Origin: Mustelus asterias
Lineage: Eukaryota
Reading direction: 5' to 3'
Assembly: GCF_964213995.1 (NCBI RefSeq)
Contig: NC_135823.1
Span: 1,488,001-1,552,000, forward strand
DNA: 64,000 bases
The notes below the pieces were generated by a model. It saw only the letters and a program-made list of their open reading frames with translations. It was not told the DNA's origin and did not search any database. A program made the translations under genes and the position numbers. This document shows positions 15,919 to 64,000 of the stretch, one piece after another (the first letter of the stretch is position 1; every line of letters starts with the position of its first letter).

Positions 15919-16256
15919 TTTCAGTGTCTCAGTCCATCATGCCCCAGTCTCCGCCGGTTCAGACACTTGCGGTGGGGAGTCATGTTAAACTCAGCTGTCA
16001 CGTCCGGGTCTTAGGTACTGGTTTCGTATTCTGGTACAGACAGACGGACTCAGTGACATGAGTCTGGTTTACACCACGAGCAAGCACCTCCGAGCGGCGG
16101 GGAGGTTTTCCAATGAGATTTCTGATAAAGAGGAAAATTATTCACTGATCATTGCGGATACCCGGAGAAACGATTCTGGAATGTATTACTGTGCAATGCC
16201 CAGTTGCACGATCAGAGCATTAATATTCGGAAACGGCTCCAAGTGAGTGATTACAG
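15919..16256 (+). pseudogene. Germline-joined VJ Ig domain exon
   Basis: Acceptor tttctctctatttcccag. Reads SVSQSIMPQSPPVQTLAVGSHVKLSCHVRVLGTGFVFWYRQ [frameshift] SLVYTT...GRFSNEISDKEENYSLIIADTRRNDSGMYYCAMPSCTIRALIFGNGSK*VIT, then donor ACAG|GTAC. V-set Cys-Trp-Cys (about 65 codons between Cys) and a J-type FGxG motif in one exon. Confidence 0.93.
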
Positions 16257-16450
16257 GTACATTTGTTTTTCATTAAAATGACATAGTAAAACCATTTAAT
16301 ACGTTTCCTGTTCCAATTGTTAAAGTTTAAAGTTTTTTTTCATGAGTGTCACAAGTTGCCTACATAAATAATGCAATAAATATACGATGAAAATCCCCTA
16401 GTTAATGGGTTCACCGTTTTATTGACCGGATTTAGAAATCAAAGCAGAAA

Positions 16451-16789
16451 TCATAGAAACCCTACAGTACAGAAAGAGGCCATTCGGCCCATCGAGTCTG
16501 CACCGACCAGAAACCCACCCACGCCCTATCCCCATATCCCGACATATTTTACCCGCTAATCCCTCTAATCTACGCATCCCAGAATACTAAGGGGCAATTT
16601 TAGCACGGCCAATCAACCTAACCCGCACATCTTTGGACTGTGGGAGGAAATCGGAGCACCCGGATGAAACCCATGCAGACACGAGGAGAATGTGCAACCT
16701 CCACACAGGCAGTGACCCAAGCCGGGAATCGAACCCAGGTCCCTGGAGCTGTGAACCAGCATTGCTAACCACTGTGCGACCGTGCCACC
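16451..16789 (-). mobile_element. HE1-type SINE inserted at the 5' end of the C1 exon
   Basis: Near-consensus copy abutting the C1 reading frame. Confidence 0.9.
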
Positions 16790-16796
16790 ACGGTAG

Positions 16797-17076
16797 CGGA
16801 TTCGACCACCATATTCCTCCTCACTCCACCGCTGGATGAGACCCCCGCCGTGAAAAGGGTTCCGTTGTTGTGTTCGGTCAGAGGTATGTCTCCCGGTTCT
16901 TTTTCTGTCAGCTGGAATGTTGCCGGGCGGGATACCGATGGTCAGTCCGATTCCGGGACAATGGAACCGGATGTGACCTATACCATCAGGAGTTACATCA
17001 GCCTTTTGGCGGAAACCTGGATCAGCGGCGCTCGCTGTACGTGCACCGTTCATATCAACTCTGGTGATCATCTGAG
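16797..17076 (+). pseudogene. C1-set Ig constant domain exon (main part)
   Basis: Open frame DSTTIFLLTPPLDETPAVKRVPLLCSVRGMSPGSFSVSWNVAG...TYTIRSYISLLAETWISGARCTCTVHINSGDHL has C1 hallmarks (IFLLxPP, LLCxVxG, VSW, SYxxL...W, xTCxVH). The 5' boundary is obscured by a SINE and the 3' end is cut by a CR1. Confidence 0.9.
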
Positions 17077-19188
17077 AACACAAGAACATAAGCAATAGGA
17101 GCAGAAGTAGGCCATCTTGCCCCTCAAGCCTGCTCCGCCATTCAATAAGATCATGGCTGATCTGATGGTGGTTCAGTTCCACTTACCCGCCCACTCACCA
17201 TCACCCTTCGTTCCCTTCATGGTTTAAAATCTATCTATCTGTGACTTAAACACATTTAACGAGGTAGCCTCTACTGCTTCATTGGGAGAGAATTCCAAAG
17301 AATCACTATCCTAAGGGAGAAGAAGTTCCTCCTCAACTCTGTTCTACGTTGACCCCCCGTACTTTGAGGCTATGCCCCGTAGTTCTTGTTTCCATTGTAA
17401 GTGGAAATAACCTCGCTGCTTTTACCCTCTCTCGCCCCTTCATAATCTTACATGTCTCTATGAGATCTCCCCTCAACCTTCTAAACTCCAATGAGTACAG
17501 GCCCAGTCTACTCAATCGCTCCTCATAAGCTAACCCCCTCATCTCTGGAATCAACCTGGTGAACCTTCTCTGTACCCCCTCCAAAGCTAATATATCCTTT
17601 CTTAAATAAGGTGACCAAAATTGTACACAGTACTCTAGGTGTGACCTCACCAGTACCCTGTGCATTTGCAGCATGACCTCCCTGCTTTTATACTCCATCC
17701 TACTCACGATAATGGCCAACATTCCATTTGCCTTCTGTATTACCTGCTGCACCTGCAAACTGAGTTTTTGTGCTTCATGCACAAGGACCTCCAGGTCCCT
17801 CTGCGCAGTAGCATGTTGTAATTTTTCACCGTTTAAATAATAGTCCATTTTACTATTATTTCTCCCAAAGTAGGTAACCTCACACTTACCAACGTTATAT
17901 TCCATCTGCCAGATCCTTGCCCACTCACTTAGCCTACCGAAATCTCTCTGCAGACTCTCTGTGTCCTCCACGCAATTTGCTTTGCCACTCATTTTTGTGC
18001 CATCCACAAACTTTGTTACCTAAACTCGGTCCCCGCTTCCAGATCGTCGATGTATATGGTAAATAGTTGAGGCCCCAGCACCAATCCCTGCGGCACACCA
18101 CGAGTCACTGATTGCCAACTGGAAAAGCACCCATTTGTTCTGACTCTCTGCTTTCTGTCAGATAGCCAATCCTCAATCCACGCTAACACTTTACCCCCAA
18201 CTCTGTGTACCATTATCTTGCAGCAACTTTTGTGAGGCACCTTATCGAATGACTTCTGGAAATCTGAATATACCACATCCACCGGTTCCCCTCTGTCAAC
18301 CGCACTCGTTATATCCTCAAGAAATACCAGTAAAATAGTCAAGCATGACTTTCACTTCATGAATCCATGCTGCATCTGCTTCATTGACCCATTTTTTTCC
18401 AGGTGTCCTGGTATTTCTTCCTTAATGATAGATTCCAGCATTTTCCCAACGACGGATGTTAAGCTAACCGGCCTGTAGTTACCTTCCCTTTGTCTACCTC
18501 CTTTTTTAAACAGTGGCGTTACATTAGCTGTTTTGCAATCAGCTGGCACCTCCCAGAGTCCAGTGAATTTTGCTACATTACAACGAATGCATTTGCTATT
18601 ACGTATGCCGTTTCTTTTAGTTCCCTGGGATGCATTCCATCTGGACCAGGGGACTTGTCTACTTTTAGTCGCATTAGCCTACCCAGCACTACCTCTTGCG
18701 TAATAGTGATCGTTTTAAGGTCCTTACCCCCTACAGTCCCATGACCGTCAATTATTGGTACGCTATTTCTGTCCTCCACTGTGTACACATGCAGGAACAA
18801 CACATCACTTTACCCTCCATCCTTATTTTATTTGCTTTTTTAAAAAATATTTAAAAACTAAAAATGAAACCTATCCTTCCATGCCCGTTTCCGCCGAAGC
18901 CCGATGAGCCAAAGCCCTTCAGCCCTCACTCTGCTACCTCCTCTCCCCACCGCCCGGTAATGACGCTGCCCGCTGGATAGTGTGGCCTACCTTTTAAACC
19001 TCCCGCGCGCTTCAAAAAAAAATAAAGATTTCCTTCCCAGGTGACCCCGCGGCCGGCCTACTTCTGTTTTTCCCTTAAACTAGGAAAAAAGAAACCCCGC
19101 GAAAAAGTAAGGAAAATAAAGTCAATCCCTTACCTTTTTACTCCAGCCACAAAACGCTCCATTCTGCCTTGCTCCGGTCGAACAATCT
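17077..19188 (-). mobile_element. CR1 LINE inserted in the C1 exon (RT region plus probable 5' non-coding segment)
   Basis: [30 protein letters not shown] and HLEYCVQFW motifs; agaacacaagaacataag tail; TSD tctgag at 17071-17076 and 19189-19194. Confidence 0.88.
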
Positions 19189-21950: not shown

Positions 21951-22073
21951 TATTGACAAAACCTCTTTCCATTCTCGGATGAAATTAGACAGGCATAGTT
22001 GAAAAAATCCTTCACTTGTCTAATCATTTCGACAATTCATTATTTGAAGTGAAATTTATTTTTCCATTTGCAG

Positions 22074-22193
22074 ATTCTCTGCACCTGATCAAAAGCATTT
22101 TCCTGCTTTCCGGGGCTTCGTCGGATGTGACACTTCTCCTTCTGGGATCGGCTCTTGTGGCCGGGAGATGGGGCTTCAGGAACCGGCAGAGAG
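22074..22193 (+). pseudogene. Transmembrane exon of the VJ-C1 gene
   Basis: Acceptor tttttccatttgcag and donor AGAG|GTAGCG, 120 nt, phase 1/1. DSLHLIKSIFLLSGASSDVTLLLLGSALVAG is followed by the basic stop-transfer segment RWGFRNRQR. Confidence 0.75.
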
Positions 22194-22327
22194 GTAGCGA
22201 TAGTTGGGAGATGCTTTGATTTTTCGCGCTCTCAATTCGTCCATTGTGAACGTTATTATTGACACCTTGAGCGGGTTCAGAGTGAAATATGGCCATTTAG
22301 ACTCAAGTTAAATCCTCTTTCTAACAG

Positions 22328-23894: not shown

Positions 23895-26810
23895 GGCACG
23901 GTGGCACAGCGGTTAGCACTGCCGCCTCACTGCTCCAGGGACCCGGGTTCAATTCTGGCCTGAGGTGACTGGCAGTGTGGAGTTTGCTCGTTCTCCCTGT
24001 GCCTGCGTGGGTTTCATCTGGGTGTTCTGGTTTCCCGTCACAGTAAAAAGATGTGTATGTTAGGTGGATCGGCCATGCTCAATTGCCCGTTAGTGTGTCA
24101 AAATGTGCGGATTAGGGGGATTAGAGAGTTTTACATGTGGGATTACGAGGATAGGGTCTCAGTACAATACTCGTTTGGAGAGGTAGTGCAGACTCGGTGG
24201 CCCGAATGTTGAAATTGGATGTGTCATATGTCATAGTCCAAAGATGTATAGATTAGATGGATTTGTCATGCCAAAATGTCCCTTAGTGTCCGTGGTTGGG
24301 GGATTCGTGTGCTAAATTAACCCTTAGTGTCCAATGATGTGCAGGTGAGGTGGGCTGGCCATGCTAAATTACCCATTAAAGTCCAATTTATGTGTAGGTT
24401 AGATGGCGTAGCCATCCTAAATTGTCCCTATTGTCCAAAGTTTGTAAATTAGGTGGATTAGACATTGTAAATTATCTCGTGGAGTCCAAAGACGTGTAGG
24501 TTATATGGTTTAGCCGTCCTAAATTGCCCTGTGGTGTCCAATGATGTGTGGATTAGCTGGATTGTCCATAACAAATTGTCCCATAGTAGAACATAGAACA
24601 TAGAACATAGAACATTACAGCGCAGAACAGGCCCTTCGGCCCACGATGTTGCACCGACCAGTTCAAAAAAAACTGTGACCCTCCAACCTAAACCAATTTC
24701 TTTTCGTCCATGAACCTATCTACGGATCTCTTAAACGCCGCCAAACTAGGCGCATTTACTACTGATGCTGGCAGGGCATTCCAATCCCTCACCACCCTCT
24801 GGGTAAAGAACCTACCCCTGACATCGGTTCTATAACTACCCCCCCTCAATTTAAAGCCATGCCCCCTCGTGCTGGATTTCTCCATCAGAGGAAAAAGGCT
24901 ATCACTATCCACCCTATCTAAACCTCTAATCATCTTATATGTTTCAATAAGATCCCCTCTTAGCCGCCGCCTTTCCAGCGAAAACAATCCCAAATCCCTC
25001 AGCCTCTCCTCATAGGATCTCCCCTCCATACCAGGCAACATCCTGGTAAACCTCCTCTGCACCCTCTCGAAAGCCTCCACATCCTTCCTGTAATGTGGGG
25101 ACCAGAACTGCACACAGTACTCCAAGTGCGGCCGCACCAGAGTTGTGTACAGTTGCAACATAACGCTACGACTCCTAAATTCAATCCCCCTACCAATAAA
25201 CGCCAAGACACCATATGCCTTCTTAACAACCTTATCTACTTGATTCCCAACTTTCAGGGATCTATGCACACATACACCTAGATCCCTCTGCTCCTCCACA
25301 CTATTCAAAGTCCTCCCGTTAGCCCTATACTCAACACATCTGTTATTCCTACCAAAGTGAATTACCTCACACTTCTCCGCATTAAACTCCATCCGCCACC
25401 TCTCGGCCCAACTTTGCAACCTGTCTAAGTCTTCCTGCAAACTACGACACCCTTCCTCACTGTCTACCACACCACCGACTTTGATGTCATCAGCAAATTT
25501 GCTAATCCACCCAACTATACCCTCATCCAGATCATTAATAAATATTACAAACAGCAGTGGCCCCAAAACAGATCCCTGAGGTACACCACTTGTAACCGCA
25601 CTCCATGATGAATATTTACTATCAACCACCACCCTCTGTTTCCTATCCGCTAGCCAATTCCTGATCCAATTTCCTAGATCACCCCCAATCCCATACATCT
25701 GCATTTTCTGCAGAAGCCTACCATGGTGAACCTTATCAAACGCCTTACTAAAATCCATATATACCACGTCCACTGCCTTGCCCCCATCCACCTCCTTGGT
25801 CACTTTCTCAAAAAACTCAATAAGGTTAGTAAGGCACGACCTACCTGCCACAAAACCATGCTGACTATCACCTATCAATTCATTACTCTCCAAATAACTA
25901 TAAATCCTATCCCTTATAATTTTTTCCAACATCTTGCCGACAACAGAAGTGAGACTCACCGGTCTATAATTCCCGGGGAAGTCTCTGTTCCCCTTCTTAA
26001 ACAATGGGACAACATTCGCTAACCTCCAATCTTCTGGTACTATACCAGAGGCCAACGACGACCTGAAGATCAGAGCCAGAGGCTCTGCAATCACTTCTCT
26101 TGCCTCCCAGAGAATCCTTGGATAAATCCCATCCGGACCAGGGGATTTATCTATTTTCAGACCCTCCAGAATATCCTGCACATCCTCCTTATCAACTGTA
26201 ATACTGTCTATTCTACTCCCTTGCAACCCAGTGTCCTCCTCAGCTATATTCATGTCCCCTTGCGTGAACACCGAAGAGAAATATTGGTTCAATGCTTCAC
26301 CAATCTCCTCCGGTTCCACACATAACTTCCCTCTGCCATCTATAACTGGCCCTAAACTTGCCCTAACCAATAGTGTCCAAAGATGGGAGGATTGGCCATG
26401 TTAAGTTAGTGCTGGGTGTCCAAAGCTTTGTAAATGTTGTCGATTAGCCATGCTAAATTACCCTTTGGACTCCAAATATCTGTACATTAGATGGATTAGC
26501 CATGCTAAATTGCCCCTTAGTGTCGAAATATGTGTACGTTAGATGGATGAGCCATGTCAAATTACCCTTTCGTGTGCAAAAATGTGTAGGTTCGATGGGT
26601 TAGCTATATTAAACATGTGGAGCAACGAGCATAGGGAGTGCAGAGGGCCTAGAGATCTTTGGACACGAAGGTGCAATTTAACATGGCCCATCCACCTAAC
26701 CTACACATTTCTGGACACTAAGGGGTAATTTAGCATGGCCAATCTTTGGACTCTACGGGACATTGTGTCATGCTTAATCCATCTAACCTACATAACCTAG
26801 GACCGTGATA
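23895..26810. repeat. HE1-derived 52-bp tandem array split by a young CR1, with an inverted distal part
   Basis: Units at about 24040-24587 and 26370-26610 (+), then 26655-26810 (-). Confidence 0.85.
24588..26369 (-). mobile_element. Young 5'-truncated CR1 LINE with uninterrupted 560-aa RT ORF (24688-26370)
   Basis: KSPGPDG, YRPVSLTS, DFSKAFD, GVPQGSVLGP, FADD; (agaacat)n tail; TSD atagt at 24583-24587 and 26370-26374. Confidence 0.96.
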
Positions 26811-44705: not shown

Positions 44706-45444
44706 AGGAAGCTTAGAGTCAGCCGGATTGGATGGCTGGAATCACATGCAGTCCGGCCAAGCAAGGATTGCAATTTTCCTTCCCTGAAGGTCATTATCGG
44801 ACAAGCTGAGTTTTACGTGGCAACCAATGGTAGTTATATTCTTTCAATGCCAGTGTTAATATTTGAAGTTAAATTTCCACCAGCTGCCCTCGTGGATGTG
44901 TACTCCTGCCTTCAGTTATTAAGCTCGACTTCTAAATTGCTAAACCAATGACATAACCAACGCAGCAACACGTCTGCCCCCGACCTTTATTTTCCTTAAG
45001 CAACAACCATCATATTCTTTGTTGTCTTTCCCCCTCCTTCCCTTGAGAGAAAATACTCTGCTGCTATATGCTTCATGTATGAAAGAGCGTTAAAATACTG
45101 CACTTGGAGTCTTCGTACCGGTATAGCCATTAGTCACATTGTTGACGTTTATTGATGTGAAAACAAAACACATTAATAGCATGACAGAGACAGAAATGTA
45201 GATTAGTGGCTGAATTTATTCCAGAATGAATTATTGGAGCCAGCAAGCTTCAAACGGGCAGGGATAACTTTTCTCATTCTATTCCCAGAATAAGGACAAT
45301 CCAGAGGAGGGCAATTGCAGCGAGAAACACACGATTTGGCAATGAATTTGATGTTCCATTAAATTCTGGAAAACGATAAATAAATTAGAATATCATTGAG
45401 AATTCTCTTACAAGCTGTGCAAAAACGAGTACCGGCCCACTCAC

Positions 45445-53968: not shown

Positions 53969-54268
53969 CTGTCACTGTCACATGCACAACAGTGCTGCGT
54001 GGTGAGTGATAGGCGATCTGCTTTACAATTCGCGCATAGCCGCAGGAGTAACTCCATGACCCAGCAGTTATCATGTCATTGACGATGAAGGACGCCGCAT
54101 GGACAGCTCCGGATACATCCAGTGTCCCTTTCTTTTCACCATCACGGTAGAAGTAAAAGCGACCACCCGAGGGCAGAATAGCACCTGTGCAGGTAAGTCG
54201 TATGGGCTTCCCTTTCGTCACCACACCAGAATGTGGTTCCACGGAAATCGCAGCCCACGGGAGCTCCT
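53969..54268 (-). CDS. Second C2-type Ig domain exon of the same LRC-like gene
   Basis: Acceptor gtttaatttcag and donor ACAG|GTGAGT, 300 nt, phase 1/1, no stops. EELPWAAISVEPHSGVVTKGKPIRLTC...FYFYRDG...ASFIV...YSCGY...SPRSTVVHVTVT, with 48 residues between Cys. Confidence 0.9.
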
Positions 54269-55204
54269 CTGAAATTAAACAGTCAGAGACATTAGCACTC
54301 TACAGAACGTTGGAGCAGCAATTGATTCAGATATTGATGAACGAGAAGGACTAGAAGGTGGATATATGTGAGATATATTTTGTTTTCAGTAGCTTCTGCT
54401 GGAGTCATAGCATCGTGGACGTATACAGCATGGAATCAGGCCCTTCGGTAAACTCGTTCATGCCAACCAGGCTTCCTAAAACGGATTAGTCCCATTAGCC
54501 TCGGTTAGGTTCATATATCTCCAAACCTTTCCGATGCATGGTGGCACATTGACTAACACTGCTGCCTCACAGCACCAGGGACCCGGGATCAATTTCTGGC
54601 TTGCCTCACTGTCTGTGTTGAGTATGCACGTTCTCCCCCTGTCTGCTTGGGTTTCCTCTGGGTGCTCCAATTTCCTCCCACTGAAAGACGTGTTGGTTGT
54701 GTTGATTGGCCATGCTAAATTATCCCTCAGTGTACCCGAACAGGCGCATGAGTGTGGCGACTAGGGGATTTTCACAGTAACTTCATTGCAGTGTTAATGT
54801 TAGTTTACTTGTGAAACTAATAATTAATCTATCCATGTCTATGTCCAAATGTCTTTAAATGTTGCAATAATAGCCACTTCTACCACCTCCTCTGGTTGGT
54901 CATTCCATATACGTACCACCCTCTTTGAGAAGAAGTTAGATCTCTGGCCCCTTGAAATATTTCTCTCTCACTTTGAACCTGTGCCCCTCTAGTTTTGTAC
55001 TCCCCCTACCCTTGGGGAAAATGCCTTGTCTATTCACCTGATCTATGCCACTCACGATTTTATAAATCTCGATAAAGTTACCCCTCATCCTCCTATCCTC
55101 CAGGGAAAGCGGTCCCAACCTATCCAGCTTCTTCTTATAATTCAAAACTTCCAGCCCAGCTAAGATCCTTATGAATCTTTTTGCAGCCTTTCCAGTTCAA
55201 TAAC

Positions 55205-56330
55205 ATTGTCCACACAGTTCACCCCACCAGTTTTGGCTTTGAAAGTAGCATCCTCCACCATTTCTGCCATGATGCTACCACCAAAAACATCTCCCTCTCA
55301 GTCCCCCTGTCAGCAATCTGCAGGGAAGGTTGTCTCCATGATGATCTGGTCCACTCCTCCATCATCCCCAACTCCTCCTCCCCTGCACTCTATGCCTTTC
55401 CATACAATCACAGATGATGCAACACCCACGCATTTCGCTGCCCCTTCCACTCCATTCAAGTTCCCAAAAACGTATTTCAGGTGAAGCAGGATTTGACCTG
55501 TACTTCCATCAATTTTGTCTACTCTGAGTCTCTACTTTCTCAGAAGACGAAGGAAATTTGGCATGGCTACTCCGACTCTCACCAACTGATATTGATGCAC
55601 CATCGAAAGTATTATTTCTGGTTGGTATGGCTCCTCCTCTGCCCAGAACTGCAAGAAACTACAAAGGATGGTGAACGAAGCCCAGTCCCAACACGCAAAC
55701 CAGTCTCCCATCCATTGACTCTGTCTCCACTTCGCGCTGCCTCAGAAAAGCAGCCAGCATAATCACGGATCCAACGCACCCTGGACATATTCTCTTCCAC
55801 CTTCTTCCATTGGGTCTGAAGTCCTGTACCAAGCGATTCAAGAACAGTTTCTTCACTGCTGCCATCAGACCTTTCAATGGTCCTATCTTATATTGAACCG
55901 ATCTTTCTTTACACCCTAGCAATGACTGTAAATTTACATTCCACAATATCTCCTTTCCTTCTCCATGGACGGTATGCCTTGTGTGCGTCGCATGCAGGAC
56001 ACAATATTTTTCACTGCATCGCAGTAAATGTTGCAATAATAAATCAAATCAAATCAAATCAAATCCTCTACATGGAGGAGACTAAGCACTGACTGGGTGA
56101 TCGCTCCAAGGAACACCTTTGCTCAGTCCGCCCGCCAAAAGGACACAAATTTCCTGTTGCTTGCTGTTTCAATTCACCATCTTGCTCTCCTTCCCACATG
56201 CCCGACCGCGGTCTGCTGCCACCGCCCAGTATAGCCCAACGCAAACTGCAGGAGCAACACCACATCTTCTGATTAGACACGTTAAATCCTTCAAAGCTCA
56301 ACACTGAGTTCAACGCTGCACTCCATCTTG
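55205..56330 (+). mobile_element. Penelope-like element fragment (GIY-YIG) split by a Rex/Babar-like insertion
   Basis: VKQDLTCTSINFVY ... LYMEETKH*LGDRSKEHL resembles the PLE motif FTC.S.NLVY...YIGET.R.L..R..EH. Confidence 0.7.
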
Positions 56331-59129
56331 ACCCTCCTTTTCTGAGCCAATTTCCGAAAGTCATTTGTGCCCCAACACTCTGTCTCCCCACAGCATCATC
56401 TGTCACTTAGAAAGATAGAAACTAAAAGCAGGAGTAGGCCATTCGGCTCTTCGAGCCTGCTGAGCTATTCAGCTTTTCATTGTGATTATGGCTGATTATC
56501 AAATTCAATATCTTAATCCCCCTTGTCTCATATATTTCCTGATACCTTCAGCCCCAATAGCTATATCTAATTTCTTCTTGTAATCATGACGTGTTGTCCT
56601 GAACTACTTTCTGTGGCCATGAATTCCACACATTCACCACTCTCTGAGTGAAGAAATTTCTCCTCTTTGCCCTAAAGTTTTTTGCCCCTTGTGGGTGGTA
56701 CAGTGGCAAACAGCGCCAGAGAACTGTGTTCAATTCTGGTACCAGGTCAATGTGTGGGGTCTGCATATCTCCCCGTGGTTGTGTGGATTTCCTCTGCTTG
56801 TTCCTGTTTCCTCCCACAATCCAGGAATGTGCAGGTCAGGTGGATTGGCCATGGGAAATTGCCCCTTAGGGTCAGGGAGATTGGCAAAGTAAATACTTGG
56901 GGTTACGGGGATAGGGCCTGGGTGGGATTGTAGTTGGTTTTAGGCTCGATGGGCCCAATGGCCTCCTGCTGCACTGGAAGGATTATTTGTTTCTATGATT
57001 ATCCTCAAGCTGTGCCCCCGAGTTCTGTACTCACCCAACATCGGAAACATTGTTTCTGCCAAACAAATTTAGATTTTAAAAAATATCTATGAGGTACTTA
57101 AACTCCAATGAAGACAATCCCAACAGACTTAGTCATATGCCAAACTTGCCATCCCAGGAATCAGCCTGGTAAACCTTCGCTGTACTCCCTCTATGGCAAA
57201 AACATCCTTCCCCACACAATGACACTAAAACTGCACACAAACTCCAGGTGTCGCCTCACCAACTTATTTTGCTATTAACACGCTGTGCGATGTTACCTTT
57301 ACACCACTGTTACCACCTTCTTCAGTCTTTAAAATATTGTACTCACTTTGCCTGTGCCCATTATGTATTTTTGTCATATCACTCCTCTTTCCCACCTATC
57401 AGCTAACGTCTACGTCCCTCCACATGCTCCACTCCCATGTAACACAGTGTACTATCCATTATATTTATCTCTCTGTTCAATGTTAAGGAAGAGTCATACA
57501 TGCATTAAGCATTGACACTTTTTGTCTCTCCTTTGACTTATTTTAGCATTTTAATTTCTAATTTCCAACATCGACAGTGCTCTTCTTTTACGTGTGCAAG
57601 GACTTACAATCGATAATTAGATCACGTTGGGGCGACGTGGTGGCAGAATGGTTAGCACTGCAGCCTCACGGCACCAGGGACCTGGGTTCACTTCCTGCCT
57701 TGGGTGACGTTGTGGAATTTGTACATTCTCCCCATGTCTGCGTCGTGCAGGTTAGGTGGGTTAGCCACGCTACATTCGTCCTTTGTGTCCAAAGATCTGT
57801 ACGTTAGTGGCATTCGACGCATGAACATTAGGAATGGCTTTTTCCGGCCGTGCTCGGTGCGAAACCGGAAAATCTCGCCCAAGGTCACCGGACCTTTCCA
57901 TAGTCCACCTCTCGCCGCTACAATTCCCGTGGCCGACGGTATGGTAGACTGTGGCCCAATTACTCCAAATCTTGGACTCCAAAAATAGAACAAATGCGAT
58001 TGTTCAGAGTGAACTGCACTCAACGCCTCTACTTGCTCAGTCGGCTAGAAAAATTCAGCATGTCGTCGACGACTCCAATCAATTTTGGCAGATGCACCAT
58101 ATAAAGTATCCTTTCTAGATGTATCACAGCTTGGAATGACATCTGCTCTGTCCATGGCCCTAAAAAATCCCAAAGGGTTGTGAACGTAGCCCAGTCCATC
58201 TACACTTCCTGCTGCCCCAGAAAAACATCCAGCATAATCAATGGCCCCACGCACGCCAGACATCCTCACTTCCAAGTTTAAAGTTTGTTTATTAGTCGCA
58301 AGTCTGCTCACATGAGCACTACAATGAAGTTACTGTCGAAATCTCTGAGTCGACACAGTCCAACCGACGCCTGTTCGGGTATACTGAGGGAGAATTTAGC
58401 ATGGCCTGTACACCTAACCAGGGCACCTGGAGGAAACTCACGAAATCATGGGGAAAACGTGACAACTCCACACAGTGACCCGAGCTGGGAATTGAACCCG
58501 GGTCCCTGGCGCTGTGAGGCAGCAGTGCTAGCCACTGTGCCACGGTGCCGCCCCTGCTTTCACCCCATCCAACTCCTTCCTTCAGGAGATAGATACAAAC
58601 GTCTGAGAACCGACTCAAGAACAACTTCTTCCCTGCTGCCATCAGACTTTTGAATGGACCCACCTTATATTAAGCTGATCTTTCTCTACACCCGAACTGT
58701 ATATGTAGCATTCTGCATCCTCTCGTTTATTTCCCTATGTGCGATATTCTTTGTCTGTATAGCACGCAAGAAGCGATACTTTTCACTGTATCGACTCCCC
58801 TCCTCCCCTCCCCTCCTCCATTACCGTGTCAGCACTGAAGCAACGCTGTCCAGTTCTGCTGCGGAACAAAAACACAAACTTCCATCTGTCCGCAGAGGTA
58901 GATGCAGCCGTTCCTTCAGCCACTATTAGAACAAGAGCATTTGAGCATTCTCTAACTTCTATATACCTCATATACTGTGAATATAATGCTTTCTGGATTG
59001 TAAAAAACAGCTGAATGCGGACATGTTGAAGGAAAAGATCCGTTACAATCTGATTGAACAATCGTTCAAACTAGCATGACAGAATGGTCTGAGCCTGCTG
59101 CTGCTTCATGTAATCAGTGATCCCTGCAG

Positions 59130-60090
59130 GGAAGAAAAAGGCCATTCGGTCCATCGAGCCTGCACCAACTACTATACCACGCACGCCCAATTCCTGTAAC
59201 ACTCCATATTTGCCCTGCTAATCTTACTGACACAAAGGGCAAATTAACATGACCAATCTACCCACACTGCACATCTTTGGACACTAAAGGGCAATCTACC
59301 GTGGCCAATCAACCTAACCTAAACATCTCTGGACACTAAGGTGGAATCTGCATTTGCCAATCCAACGAAATTACACATCCTTAGACTCTATGGGGCAAGG
59401 GGCAATCTTCCATGGCCAATCAACATAACCTAAACATCTTTGGAAACTAAGGTGTAATTTAGCATGGCCAATCCACCTGACGTGCACATCTTTGAACATT
59501 GAGGGGCAATTCAAAATGGCCAAATAAGCTGACCTACACATCTTTGGACACTAAGGGACAATATAGCATTACCAATCCACCTAACCTCAACATCTTTTGA
59601 CTCGAAGGGGAAATTTAGCATGGCCAATCCACCAAACCTACACATCCTTCGAAAATAAGGGATAATTTAGCATGCCAATTCACCTAACGTACACATCTTT
59701 GGACACTAACGGCAATTTAGCATGACCAATCCACCTAACCTACACATCTTTGGACACCAAGGGGCCATTTAGCATGGCCAATCCACCTAACCTGCACACC
59801 ATTGGACTCTGGGAGGAAACCGGTGGATACAGAGGAAACTGTGTCGGTTAATTGCTAAATTACACATTAGAGTTCAAAGATGTGTAGGTTAGGTTGATTG
59901 GCTATGGCAGATTGACCCTCCAAAATGTGTCCAAAAATGTGCAGGTTAGGTTGAGTGGCCATGCTAAATTGCCCCACAGTGTCCAAAGATGTGCAGTGTA
60001 GGTAGATTTCTCGTGCTAATTTGCCCCTTAGTGTCAGTGAGATAAGTAGGGCAAAAAGGGGTGTTACAGGGATTGGGCCTGCGACACGGG
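59130..60090. repeat. HE1-derived 52-bp arrays in opposite orientations
   Basis: About 11 units (-) at 59230-59810, then units (+) at about 59850-60035. Confidence 0.85.
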
Positions 60091-61805
60091 CAGACGGTGT
60101 AAACTGCACAGAGACATTTATATTGTTTTTATGTGGCCTCTGGATGATGGTTCCCTTCAGTCAAGAGTGATGTGGATTATGCCTAATTTATAATTGCGGG
60201 AGCTGGTTGTGCACAGATTGAGCAGCATTTTACCAACATTACAAGTGCCATGTGATTTTCCAGTGGTGCAATGCTTTTGTAAAATTGGACACGTGGCTAT
60301 AGAATTGCAAATCTGACTATGAGTAGCAAAGAGGCGTTAAGTGCAAGATAGTCACAGTTTTACCGTGGCAGAATTCAATTAATGTCATTTCAGATATTGT
60401 GAGAATATGCAGGGGCTATTACTAAAAGTGGAAATTGGTGGCATTGTTTTAAATCTCTCCATTGTCTGTCCATTTGTTTTATGGAGGTTTATTATCGGGA
60501 CTTTAAAATTCTCCCAGCCTCTTGGTTATCTCGTTGGGTTCACTATGCTGCAATAATATATTACAACGTCACATAAGATTTTGATGCGATTTATTATTGT
60601 CATATGTACTGGCAAACAGTGAAAAGTACGGTTTTGCCTGCAATTCACATAAAGTGCAGCAGAGTGGCACAATGTCTCACAGCTCCAAGGACCCGGGTAT
60701 GATTCCTGGCCTGGGTGACTGTGCGGAGCCTGCACGTTCTCCATATGTCTGCGTGAGTTTCCTCCCTCCTCCCACAGTCCAAAAATGTGCTGGTTAGGTG
60801 CATTGGCCATGCTACATTGACTCTTCGTCTCCAAAGCTGTGCGGGTTAGGTGGATTGGCCATGCTAAATTACCTCTTACTATCCAACGATGTGTATTTCC
60901 TGCTGATTAGCCATGCTAAATTGCCCCTTATTATCCAAAGATGAGTCGGTTAGGTGTGTTGGCCACGTTGGTTTTGAGGATTCAAACCCTCCATGCCAGC
61001 TAACGCCTGTAACCAACCACACCCTGCTAGATACTCTGGAACGAGAGGTGAAGTGGCTATACATTTGTCATTCGTTCATGGGACATGGATGCCGCTGGCT
61101 GACCAGTATTTATTGCCCAACCTTAGTTGCCCTTCAACTGAGTGGTATGCTCAGAGGGAAAGGAGAGGGCAATTGAGAGTCAACCACATTGCTATGGATC
61201 TTAAGTCACATGTATGCCAGTCAAGGTAAGGACGGATGTTATAATCCATTCCAATGATATCTACTTCTGAATTCGAAATACTATATAACCCAACTTCTGA
61301 ACTCCTGGTGGGACGAAAAAACATCAGGTTCACTAATATTAGTGCATAATATTAGAGAGAGATTGTATCTAATCCCAGTCTTAAGTCAAATTGGAATAGT
61401 CAGGTATCCCAGCTCGCCTTGTCCCCGGCTCTATTACTTGGAAGGGCCATGTGAGAGTGATCAGAAAACTTTACAAAATGGGCCTTTTGAGATTCAGCAT
61501 TAATGGCCAAAAGCAGGATTTGACCTAAAGGAGGCAATTAACCCGGATAATCCTTTCTTCCGGGTCAGAACATGGGAAACTTGGGATCATTTAAATTCTT
61601 AAGAGAAGTAACGCAGAAATGGGAACATAAAAACCAAAAAACAAACGATGTTACAAAAACACAGCAGGCTTCGCAGCACACGAAGTGCTGTCCGTTGCAA
61701 TCCTAGGCGAGAATCACTGTTTTTGAAACTGAGATGACAGCCTGGGGACTTCGCCATGTGGGTAACACTTAGGCTAACACAATGAATTGAATTGGTTTAT
61801 TTATT

Positions 61806-62610
61806 CATAGAGTAAAAGAGTCATAGAAGGTTATAGCATGGAAACATGCCCTTTGGCCCAACTTGTCCATGACGACCTTTCGTTTTCAACCCGAAGCTAG
61901 TCCCAATTGCCTGCATTTGGTCCCTATCCCTCCATGACCATCTTACCGATGTAACTGTCTAAATGTTTTTTAAAGGACAATATTGTACACCTCTGCTACT
62001 ACCTCTGGCAGCTTGTTCCAGACACTCACCACCCCCTGTGCGAAACAAAATGCCCGTCTGGATACTTTTGTATCACTCCCCTCTCACCTTAAATCTATGC
62101 CCTCTAGGTTTAGACTCCCCAACCTTTGGCAAAATATGTTGGCTTTCTCGCTGATCTATGCCCCTCATTATTTTATAGACCTCCATAAAGTCACCCCTTA
62201 GCCTTCTACGATCGAGAGAAAAAAGTCCCAGTCTATCCAGCCTCTCTTTATAACTTAAACTATCAAGTACCAGTAGCATCCTAATAAATCTTTTCTGTAC
62301 TTTGTCTCGTTTAATAATATGCTTTCAATATTGGGTGACCAGAACTGTACACAGTATTCCAAGTGTGGCCTTAACAATGCCTTGTACAACTTCAACAAGA
62401 CGTCCCAACTCCTGTATTCAGTGTTCTGACGAATGAAACCAAGCATGCTGAATGCCTTCTTCACCACTCTGTCCACTCGTGACTCCACTTTCAAGGAGCC
62501 ATGGACATGTACCGCTCGATTCTTTTTGTTCTGTAACTCTCCCCAAAACCTACCATTAACTGAGTAAGTCCCGCCCTGGTTCAATGTACCAAAATGCATC
62601 ACCTCACATT
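61806..62610 (-). mobile_element. CR1 3' fragment (same family as 298-1290)
   Basis: LLRPHLEYCVQFWSP and SYKERLDRLGLFSL motifs. Confidence 0.9.
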
Positions 62611-63470
62611 TATCATTCGTGGACCATGGGCATCGCTGGCTGGCCAGAACTTATTGTCCTTCTCAAGCTGCTCTTGAGAAGGTGGTGGTGAGCTGTCTTC
62701 TTGGAACGCTTGCAATCCACGTGCTGCGGATTGATCCACAATGCCAGTGGGGATCGAAATTCCAGAATTTTGACCCAGCTGCTGCGAAGGAACAGCAACA
62801 TATTGCCGAGCCAGGATGCTGAGTAGCTCGGAGGGGAACTTGCAGGTGGTGTTGTTCCCATATATGTTTGGGTGTCTCGATGGCACAGTGGTTAGCACTG
62901 CTGCCTCGCAGCGCCAGGGACCCACGTTCGATTCCCGGCTTGGGTCACTGTCTGTGTGGAGTTTGCACCTTCTCCCTTTGTCTGCGTGGGTTTCCTCCGG
63001 GTGCTCCGGTTTCCTCCCACAGTCCAAAGATGTCTGGGTCTGGTGCATTTGCGATGCTAAATTGCGCCCGAATGTCTCGGGATGCGTCGATTAGAGGAAT
63101 TAGCACATGTGGGATTACGGCCTGGGCATAGCCTGGGTGGGATTGTTGTCGGAGTAGACTCGATGGGCTGAATGGCCCCCTTCTGCACTGTTGGATTAGT
63201 ATGATTATTCTATGTATCTGCTGTCCCTGTCTTTCTAGATGGAAGTTGTCATGGGTTTCAAAGGTGTTGTCGAAGGATCTTTGGTGAATTGCTGCAGTCC
63301 ATTCTGTAGCTGGTACACACTGCTGCTACTGCGCCTCAGTGGTGGAGGCAGTGGATGTTTGTGGATGTGGTGCCATTCAAACAGAACCCTTTGTCCTGGA
63401 TGGTGTCAAGGTTCTTGAGTGTTGTTGGAGCTGTACCCAGCCAGGCAAGTAGGGAGTATTCGGCTGCACT
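62610..63470 (-). mobile_element. L2-type fragment with nested HE1 SINE (about 62878-63213, +)
   Basis: L2 sequence is continuous either side of the SINE. Confidence 0.75.
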
Positions 63471-63658
63471 CATAACTCAACTCGGGGGTTTGAGTTACTC
63501 TCCTTAGCACTCCTAAACTCTGAGCTGCTCCATCACATTCCTGACTTGAGGGTTGAATAAAGAATATCTGGATGGAATTACCGTGCAGCCAACAGTATTC
63601 AAGTGGAGCTTACTATCTCCAAAGGCTTGATTTTGACATTCAAAGATATCTCACTCAC

Positions 63659-63955
63659 CGGTGACATTGAAGGCCACGACGTTACTACGGGGTGACACAT
63701 ATTCCGTCCCTTTTACCGTTTTCACAAAGCTGCAACTGAAGGCTCCTCCATCATTTGGTGCCAGCTCTTTGATAGTAAATATGACGGTCCTCTCAGAGTC
63801 TGACATGTTATGGGTGTAGATGGCAGGCCCTTGTTCCCGATATAAGTGGGCGACGTCGCTTGGGTGGTTGCTGGTACAGTTAATGTTGACTCTCTCCCCC
63901 ACTGTGAACACACCAAACGTTGGCGCTATCGAGATGGCGGGTTTCGGCAGCTCAT
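63659..63955 (-). CDS. C2-type Ig domain exon of an LRC-like (LILR/KIR/CHIR-type) receptor
   Basis: Acceptor ttctacatattccag and donor ACCG|GTGAGT, 297 nt, phase 1/1, no stops. DELPKPAISIAPTFGVFTVGERVNINC...HLYREQG...FTIKELAPNDGGAFSCSF...SPRSNVVAFNVT, with 47 residues between Cys. Confidence 0.9.
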
Positions 63956-64000
63956 CTGGAATATGTAGAACACATCAATAGATTATTTATTAGTGGCACA

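What the first reader, a model, noticed from the sequence alone, without database searches (positions are those of the whole stretch)
53969..63955. Shark LRC-type (LILR/KIR/CHIR-like) receptor gene with intact Ig exons
Seen: two stop-free phase-1/1 exons 9.4 kb apart. They share ELP..AIS..P..GV...G....C, Y(R) in place of the C-strand Trp, SC.[YF], Y.SPRS.VV...VT and an identical donor G|GTGAGTGA. Established: LPKP...P...G..V...C / F.LYK.G / Y.C.Y / S..S....L.VT typifies leukocyte-receptor-complex domains. Inference: a cartilaginous-fish LRC-family gene built by domain duplication and probably under constraint. Its leader and other domains lie beyond position 64000.
Basis: partly seen in the sequence, partly recalled or inferred. 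Interest (0 to 1): 0.7.

Follow-up and report, generated by a model that had tools for sequence, protein, structure and literature searches.

The report
Tail-less shark LILR-like receptor gene
These exons belong to a shark gene for a four-domain immune surface protein related to human LILR/KIR receptors; it has lost its signalling tail and is likely held on the cell by a lipid (GPI) anchor, where it would act as a non-signalling partner or decoy of its signalling relatives.

Summary
Observation confirmed. Sequence and fold searches rank LILR/PIR/KIR/OSCAR first. The family's main cluster lies 0.9 Mb from TTYH1 and the family has ITIM and TM-Arg members, against a 2014 report that sharks lack LRC genes. 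This copy differs: against a tailed paralog, a 17-nt gap and a stop follow the hydrophobic run, so there is no tail. Twelve tail-less proteins (three shark orders) all keep N-G-[T/A], a 7-residue spacer and a 16-18-residue hydrophobic end; only 4 keep the Arg. GPI anchoring is likely, untested. The copy lies on another chromosome inside a cluster of VJ-C1 genes. Two upstream acceptors are mutated (in-frame alternatives exist), so decay is possible; splicing was not seen in RNA. This scan noted tail-less shark LRC genes before on other DNA (e1-9598840, e1-8630960).

The parts
63659..63955 (-). Ig domain 3 exon (phase 1/1). The gene continues beyond the window's right end: D2 exon G000:C23:1555187-1555486 (acceptor reads AA; in-frame AGs 27 and 30 nt upstream), D1 exon C23:1557231-1557530, 24-nt mini-exon C23:1561814-1561837 (acceptor reads GG; in-frame AG 21 nt upstream), leader exon C23:1579654-1579717
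   Evidence: 64 of 98 residues identical to catshark P0006; upstream exons
53969..54268 (-). Ig domain 4 (membrane-proximal) exon (phase 1/1)
   Evidence: 76 of 98 identical to P0006; groups with catshark and lamniform tail-less genes, support 97/93
45274..45365 (-). Last coding exon: N-G-T small-residue site, 7-residue polar spacer ending in Arg, 18-residue hydrophobic end, TGA at 45276-45274; predicted GPI signal, no cytoplasmic tail
   Evidence: DNA alignment to the tailed paralog shows a 17-nt gap at the stop
45215..45220 (-). AATAAA 54 nt after the stop, in DNA homologous to the paralog's former intron; candidate poly(A) signal
   Evidence: use not shown

Best explanation
This is a shark gene for a four-Ig protein of the LILR/OSCAR (LRC) type that has no cytoplasmic tail and is likely GPI-anchored, so it would bind ligand without signalling by itself. 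Shown: exon anatomy, open frame of 450 codons, LRC-first matches, the stop directly after the hydrophobic run, a 17-nt gap against the tailed paralog, conservation of the tail-less end in three shark orders. Inferred: an activating-type ancestor (TM Arg plus short tail) lost its tail by that deletion; the N-G-T site, polar spacer and hydrophobic end now serve as a GPI signal (omega-site rule recalled, no predictor run); the product would compete with or modulate its ITIM and TM-Arg paralogs as a decoy or co-receptor. Ligand not determined.
For: PDB sequence search with ortholog P0005: 52 of 56 hits are named LRC receptors, best LILRB2 E 9e-20; family profile best LILRB2 5e-34 against FCRL5 7e-20; Foldseek ranks 1-11 are PirB/LILR/KIR entries; single-domain profile: PirB and LILRB2 D1, no FcR/FCRL in the 60 rows shown. 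TTYH1 lies 0.9 Mb from the C5 family matches. N-G-[T/A] in 12 of 12 tail-less ends and 0 of 9 tailed shark ends; Arg in 4 of 12 against 7 of 9; the residue before the Arg position is polar in 12 of 12 tail-less ends; two lamniform ends have only 16 residues after the spacer; four orectolobiform ends have N-G-A, which is no glycosylation sequon. The old donor is degenerate and AATAAA follows. Precedent: GPI CEACAMs arose repeatedly by stops and deletions in TM exons (PMC2832619, passages).
Against: No GPI predictor or experiment was run. The 12 ends are related and may stand for only one or two origins (orectolobiform ones form a separate, unresolved clade). This copy and both catshark orthologs still have the Arg and an 18-residue hydrophobic run that could span a membrane, and an FcR-gamma-like exon is in the genome. 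Two of six acceptors are mutated and no database protein holding the exact D4 exon was returned. The NxxR motif is absent. CNOT3 and PRPF31 are not on C5. No tree against curated FCRL/LITR domains could be built.
Confidence: 0.55

Rival explanations
1. Tail-less but true transmembrane activating receptor that couples to FcR-gamma through the Arg at the start of the hydrophobic run.
For: Arg kept here and in both catsharks and one white-shark protein; acidic residue closes the run, as described for LRC TMs (PMC6557307 Discussion); FcR-gamma-like TM exon on C275 (best match FcR-gamma E 1e-11 against CD3-zeta 5e-9); a lizard LRC-like protein P0039 has only 3 residues after its acidic residue.
Against: Arg lost in 8 of 12 tail-less ends; it now follows Pro-Asn rather than an aliphatic residue; no residue at all follows the closing Glu; two orthologs have shortened ends.
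Confidence: 0.2
2. In this species the gene is a recently disabled, displaced copy (early pseudogene) of a gene that works in other sharks.
For: Acceptors of the mini-exon (GG) and D2 (AA) are mutated; no database protein with this exon; neighbours include broken VJ-C1 genes; D2 against the paralog gives dN/dS 0.82.
Against: No stop or frameshift in 1353 nt; no rate acceleration against the catshark ortholog (25 vs 41, 26 vs 35, 29 vs 33 unique changes with three outgroups); both affected exons are frame-neutral, have in-frame upstream AGs, and are skipped in some catshark isoform models (P0002, P0005); simulated neutral decay gives two splice hits with no stop in at most 4.5% of cases (substitutions only).
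Confidence: 0.17
3. The family is an independently expanded fish paired-receptor family (FCRL/LITR-like C2 domains) that only resembles the LRC.
For: FCRL5 is third and fifth; identities to mammals are about 24%; NxxR missing; TM-Arg types also occur in Xenopus FCRL and SLAM (PMC6557307); mini-exon is 24 nt, close to the 21 nt of FcR-like genes (PMC2413239); automatic LRC names are called misleading; PMC4016189 found no shark LRC homolog.
Against: LRC receptors lead every sequence and fold search; FCRL5 has no stretch passing on its own; TTYH1 linkage of the C5 cluster.
Confidence: 0.08

Closest known systems
Activating LRC receptors (LILRA, OSCAR, GPVI, NKp46, FcalphaR; chicken CHIR/ggFcR; Xenopus ILR)
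   Same: C2-type domains that match LILR/PIR/KIR/OSCAR first; one phase-1 exon per domain; split leader; membrane segment with N-terminal Arg and closing acidic residue; family has ITIM and TM-Arg members.
   Different: No cytoplasmic residue; no NxxR; N-G-T site and polar spacer before the hydrophobic run; copy lies off the TTYH1-linked cluster. PMC6557307 (Introduction) lists human LRC products as type I membrane or secreted, none GPI-anchored.
GPI-anchored CEACAMs (CEACAM5-8) and, from recall, CD16b
   Same: A GPI signal made from a transmembrane exon by a small deletion and a stop, beside signalling paralogs (PMC2832619 passages); decoy role proposed there.
   Different: Unrelated receptor family; here anchoring is predicted only, and the tail-less form is shared by three shark orders.
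RefSeq shark proteins named IGSF1-like, OSCAR-like, A1BG-like or LILRA-like (e.g. XP_038642983.1, XP_072346635.1, XP_041035996.1)
   Same: Direct orthologs or close paralogs with the same tail-less end.
   Different: Names are automatic; no paper describing them was found in the searches listed; this copy has two mutated acceptors and no matching database protein.

Membership tests
Leukocyte receptor complex (LRC) family | C2-type Ig domains closest to LILR/KIR/OSCAR/NCR1/GPVI/LAIR domains | tested here: met
   52 of 56 PDB hits; D2/D3-type single-domain profile. No single-domain profile for D4.
Leukocyte receptor complex (LRC) family | Domains group with tetrapod LRC domains to the exclusion of FCRL/LITR in a tree | not testable with these tools
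   No named FCRL/LITR sequences were in hand as protein ids; the tree holds cartilaginous-fish rows only.
Leukocyte receptor complex (LRC) family | Paired receptors: ITIM-bearing and TM-charged members with like ectodomains | tested here: met
   Family level: P0020 (two tyrosine motifs, one ITIM by pattern) and P0014 (TM Arg) have near-identical D4 (100/95).
Leukocyte receptor complex (LRC) family | Linkage to LRC framing genes (TTYH1, CNOT3, PRPF31, LENG8, RPS9; gene list recalled) | tested here: inconclusive
   Family cluster on C5 is 0.9 Mb from TTYH1, but CNOT3 is on C21 (30), PRPF31 on unplaced C3006 (27), RPS9 not found (60), LENG8 not assigned (41). The window copy is on C23, which carries TTYH3 18 Mb away: not met for this copy.
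FcR-gamma-coupled activating LRC receptors | NxxR motif at the start of the TM | tested here: not met
   Arg present, Leu at -3; also absent in the 9 tailed shark ends examined. Motif from PMC6557307.
FcR-gamma-coupled activating LRC receptors | Acidic residue at the end of the TM | tested here: met
   Closing Glu; feature from PMC6557307 Discussion.
FcR-gamma-coupled activating LRC receptors | Short cytoplasmic tail; association with FcR-gamma | tested here: not met
   Stop follows the Glu; no paralog-like tail exon downstream on C23. Association itself untested.
GPI-anchored proteins | N-terminal leader; small omega/omega+1/omega+2 residues, polar spacer, C-terminal hydrophobic run, no tail (rule recalled) | tested here: met
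   N-G-T, spacer mean hydropathy -1.56, 18-residue end +2.71; leader exon present, no signal-peptide predictor run.
GPI-anchored proteins | Cleavage at omega and attachment of GPI (PI-PLC release) | not testable with these tools
   Needs expression experiment.
FcR-like (FCRL/XFL) family | Domains closest to FCRL/FcR; 21-nt second leader exon | tested here: not met
   FCRL5 below LILR/PIR, no FcR/FCRL in top 60; mini-exon 24 nt here, 21-nt rule from PMC2413239.

The most novel reading that the evidence does not exclude
Sharks have a full LRC paired-receptor system with a third arm unknown in tetrapods: GPI-anchored decoys made from an activating receptor by a tail-deleting mutation before the split of ground and mackerel sharks, and in this lineage that decoy gene sits physically inside a large cluster of non-rearranging, TCR-like VJ-C1 genes, a remnant or re-creation of LRC-antigen-receptor linkage.
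Probability: 0.3. Interest if true: 0.72.

Novelty: new variant of a known kind. Interest (0 to 1): 0.48.

Why it matters
If right, the LRC receptor system, with inhibitory and activating forms and an FcR-gamma-like adaptor, was present in the ancestor of living jawed vertebrates, contrary to a 2014 survey (PMC4016189), and it produced a lipid-anchored form by the same route as GPI CEACAMs. The 17-nt gap, dead donor and new poly(A) signal make the origin of that form readable in DNA, and a simple PI-PLC test decides it.

Tried and rejected
RNA evidence: no RNA holder listed; the four runs laid on the D4 region are contigs with no joints; neither bears on expression. MHC linkage rejected: all 140 MHC class I matches are on C8. 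A further Ig exon between D3 and D4, or a paralog-like ITIM or tail exon downstream: none found. Peptide-level search for the mini-exon failed; DNA homology found it. Synteny of catshark orthologs with VJ-C1 genes: the VJ-C1 protein search returned three proteins of one species only, so untested. RPS9 search found nothing; SAC3_GANP and troponin hits were not assigned to paralogs. Single-sequence AlphaFold model of D3 was poor (pLDDT 62) and was not used. A single-domain profile for D4 was not made, so D4's separate affinity rests on the whole-protein searches. PMC6761025 not held; PMC3964593 main text has no LRC/KIR passage (its supplements were not looked at and may bear on shark LRC genes); PMC1458963 passages uninformative. 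No complex prediction was run.

Full report
Observation. Both exons are real: minus strand 63659-63955 and 53969-54268, AG acceptors, phase 1/1, stop-free, donor G|GTGAGTGA. They share 32 of 99 residues (E 4e-15) and score weakly as Pfam Ig_3. The window is G000:C23:1488001-1552000.

The whole gene. In 224 kb of gap-free flanking DNA (0 N) two more Ig exons lie upstream (C23:1557231-1557530 and 1555187-1555486), so the finding's exons are D3 and D4. Catshark proteins P0001, P0004-P0006 located the leader exon (C23:1579654-1579717) and a last coding exon inside the window at 45274-45365. Leader + D1-D4 + last exon give 1353 nt and 450 residues with one terminal stop, with 64-76 identical residues per domain to the catshark ortholog. 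In the catshark database models D3 runs directly into D4; I did not see RNA for this junction. A 24-nt second leader exon (C23:1561814-1561837) was found by DNA homology to a paralog. All named close relatives are from sharks; paralogs on C5 and C2189 match proteins that the database labels Mustelus asterias.

Family. The catshark ortholog P0005 against the PDB: 52 of 56 hits are named LILR, PIR, KIR, OSCAR, NKp46, CHIR or LAIR; the other four are FCRL5 (third), titin and two antibody chains. A 17-protein profile gives LILRB2 5e-34, PirB 2e-30, FCRL5 7e-20 with no stretch passing alone. The AlphaFold model of P0006 (pLDDT 85.7) retrieves PirB/LILR/KIR at ranks 1-11, FcgammaRI at 42 (TM-scores are low, about 0.2, presumably because domain angles differ). 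A D2/D3-type single-domain profile matches PirB and LILRB2 D1 best, with titin second by summed weak domains and no FcR/FCRL in the 60 rows shown of 2962. The only non-shark hit of 18 is a rodent LILRA6 (E 3e-8, 24%). The family has ITIM forms (P0019, P0020, P0025, P0028) and TM-Arg forms with short tails (P0014-P0016, P0018), and the genome has an FcR-gamma-like TM exon besides CD3-zeta. I could not build a tree against curated FCRL or LITR domains.

Position. The closest paralogs (50-55%) are at C5:148.04 Mb and on unplaced C152, C254, C2189; weaker matches span C5:147.0-148.6 Mb (lower bounds). The three tweety genes were assigned by PDB match: TTYH1 at C5:146.13 Mb, TTYH2 on C12, TTYH3 on C23 at 19.8 Mb. 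TTYH1 is an LRC framing gene in humans (recalled), so C5 likely holds the shark LRC; against this, CNOT3 is on C21 and PRPF31 on an unplaced contig. MHC class I is on C8. The window gene is the only family member found on C23 and lies among VJ-C1 genes: 48 of 150 matches to a neighbouring C1 exon fall at C23:0.08-3.27 Mb (domains confirmed). In white shark and basking shark the tail-less genes share a contig with tailed paralogs (same longest-contig length and near-consecutive accessions), so displacement is inferred to be later, or a microchromosome was split; PMC8302630 (passages) places the ancestral LRC on a microchromosome.

The C-terminus. The last exon encodes N-G-T, seven polar residues ending in Arg, and 18 mostly hydrophobic residues ending in Glu, then TGA. 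It aligns at DNA level to the TM exon of the tailed paralog P0014 through both flanks; a 17-nt gap follows the Glu codon, the old donor is degenerate, and AATAAA stands in former intron 54 nt on. Deletion in this lineage is inferred from tailed forms being the rule in tetrapods and more distant sharks. I compared 12 tail-less ends (this gene and 11 proteins of 8 species in three orders; isoforms P0002, P0004, P0005 dropped as duplicates) with 9 tailed shark ends picked by eye as the same TM type: N-G-[T/A] 12 of 12 against 0 of 9; Arg 4 of 12 against 7 of 9; polar residue before the Arg position 12 of 12 (the pattern that located the tailed TMs required Ile/Val there, so that side is not independent); hydrophobic end 16 or 18 residues. 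These rows are kin: the D4 tree joins this gene with catshark (93/86) and lamniform tail-less genes (97/93), while the four orectolobiform ones form their own clade of unresolved position, so one or two origins. The layout fits the usual GPI-signal spacing (recalled rule; no predictor run). GPI CEACAMs arose in this way from TM exons (PMC2832619, passages). The NxxR motif that marks FcR-gamma-coupled LRC TMs (PMC6557307, Introduction and Discussion read; PMC2413239 and PMC4536121 passages) is missing here and in the tailed shark ends.

Is this copy alive? For: no stop or frameshift; dN/dS 0.53 (0.40-0.70) against the C5 paralog, 0.43 and 0.37 for D3 and D4, 0.26 for D2 against D3 (these measure old constraint); no faster protein change than in catshark. 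Against: the mini-exon acceptor reads GG and the D2 acceptor AA; D2 against the paralog gives 0.82; no database protein holds this D4. Both exons are frame-neutral, have in-frame AGs 21 and 27/30 nt upstream, and are skipped in some catshark isoform models. Simulated neutral decay gives two splice hits with no stop in at most 4.5% of cases over five divergence levels, so local acceptor shift is more likely than whole-gene decay, but expression is unshown.

Mechanism. Most likely (0.55): a GPI-anchored, non-signalling LRC-type protein that would bind the ligands of its paralogs and act as decoy or co-receptor. Rivals: tail-less FcR-gamma-coupled receptor (0.2), early pseudogene (0.17), non-LRC look-alike family (0.08). 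The ligand is not determined; collagen, MHC class I and Ig are among the known LRC ligand classes.

What is known. PMC4016189 (passages) reports no LRC homologs and no FcR-gamma in sharks; PMC6557307 leaves the family's origin open and warns that automatic names mislead. Nine literature searches (listings only unless named above) showed no paper on shark LRC receptors or a GPI-anchored LRC member; the library lacks most subscription journals, and one likely relevant paper was not held. RefSeq already names orthologs IGSF1-, OSCAR- or LILR-like. This scan's own unreviewed notes describe tail-less, probably GPI-anchored shark LRC genes in other genomes; I had stated the same reading before seeing them, and they are not evidence. 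New here are the deletion record, the position inside the VJ-C1 cluster and the two acceptor changes. Verdict: real gene, new variant of a known kind, interest 0.48.

Noticed in passing
window 15919-17095 (+), TM remnant near 22064-22198: Broken VJ-C1 gene: V exon with a germline-joined J-like FGxG motif carrying a frameshift and a stop, then a C1-set exon.
   Followed up: partly
G000:C23:80709-3268261: Large cluster of non-rearranging VJ-C1 genes (48 of 150 C1 matches); database members P0022-P0024 have V, C1, a Cys before the TM, and two of three end in a tyrosine motif. Resembles PRARP/UrIg-type genes (PMC10751288 passages) but is not on the MHC class I contig; may deserve its own study.
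   Followed up: partly
G000:C23:1595921-1598331 (-) (L005): Light-chain-like V and C exons within the VJ-C1 cluster; likeness to IgL judged by eye.
   Followed up: no
G000:C5:146092000-146121000 (L035-L038): Histone gene cluster (H2A, H2B, H3, H4, H1-like frames, recognised by eye) directly beside TTYH1.
   Followed up: no
G000:C275:471050-471133 (L053): FcR-gamma-like TM exon, although PMC4016189 reported none in sharks.
   Followed up: partly
G000:C5:148.02-148.05 Mb, C152, C2189: Near-identical ectodomains joined to either a TM-Arg or an ITIM end (P0014, P0020): a recent paired-receptor set.
   Followed up: partly
window 24691-26400 (-): 570-codon open frame with a reverse transcriptase domain (Pfam RVT_1), LINE-like; many shorter copies and SINE-like repeats fill the introns.
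   Followed up: no
G000:C561, C3162: Second copies of TTYH1-like exons on unplaced contigs, likely haplotigs; some unplaced family copies may be too.
   Followed up: no
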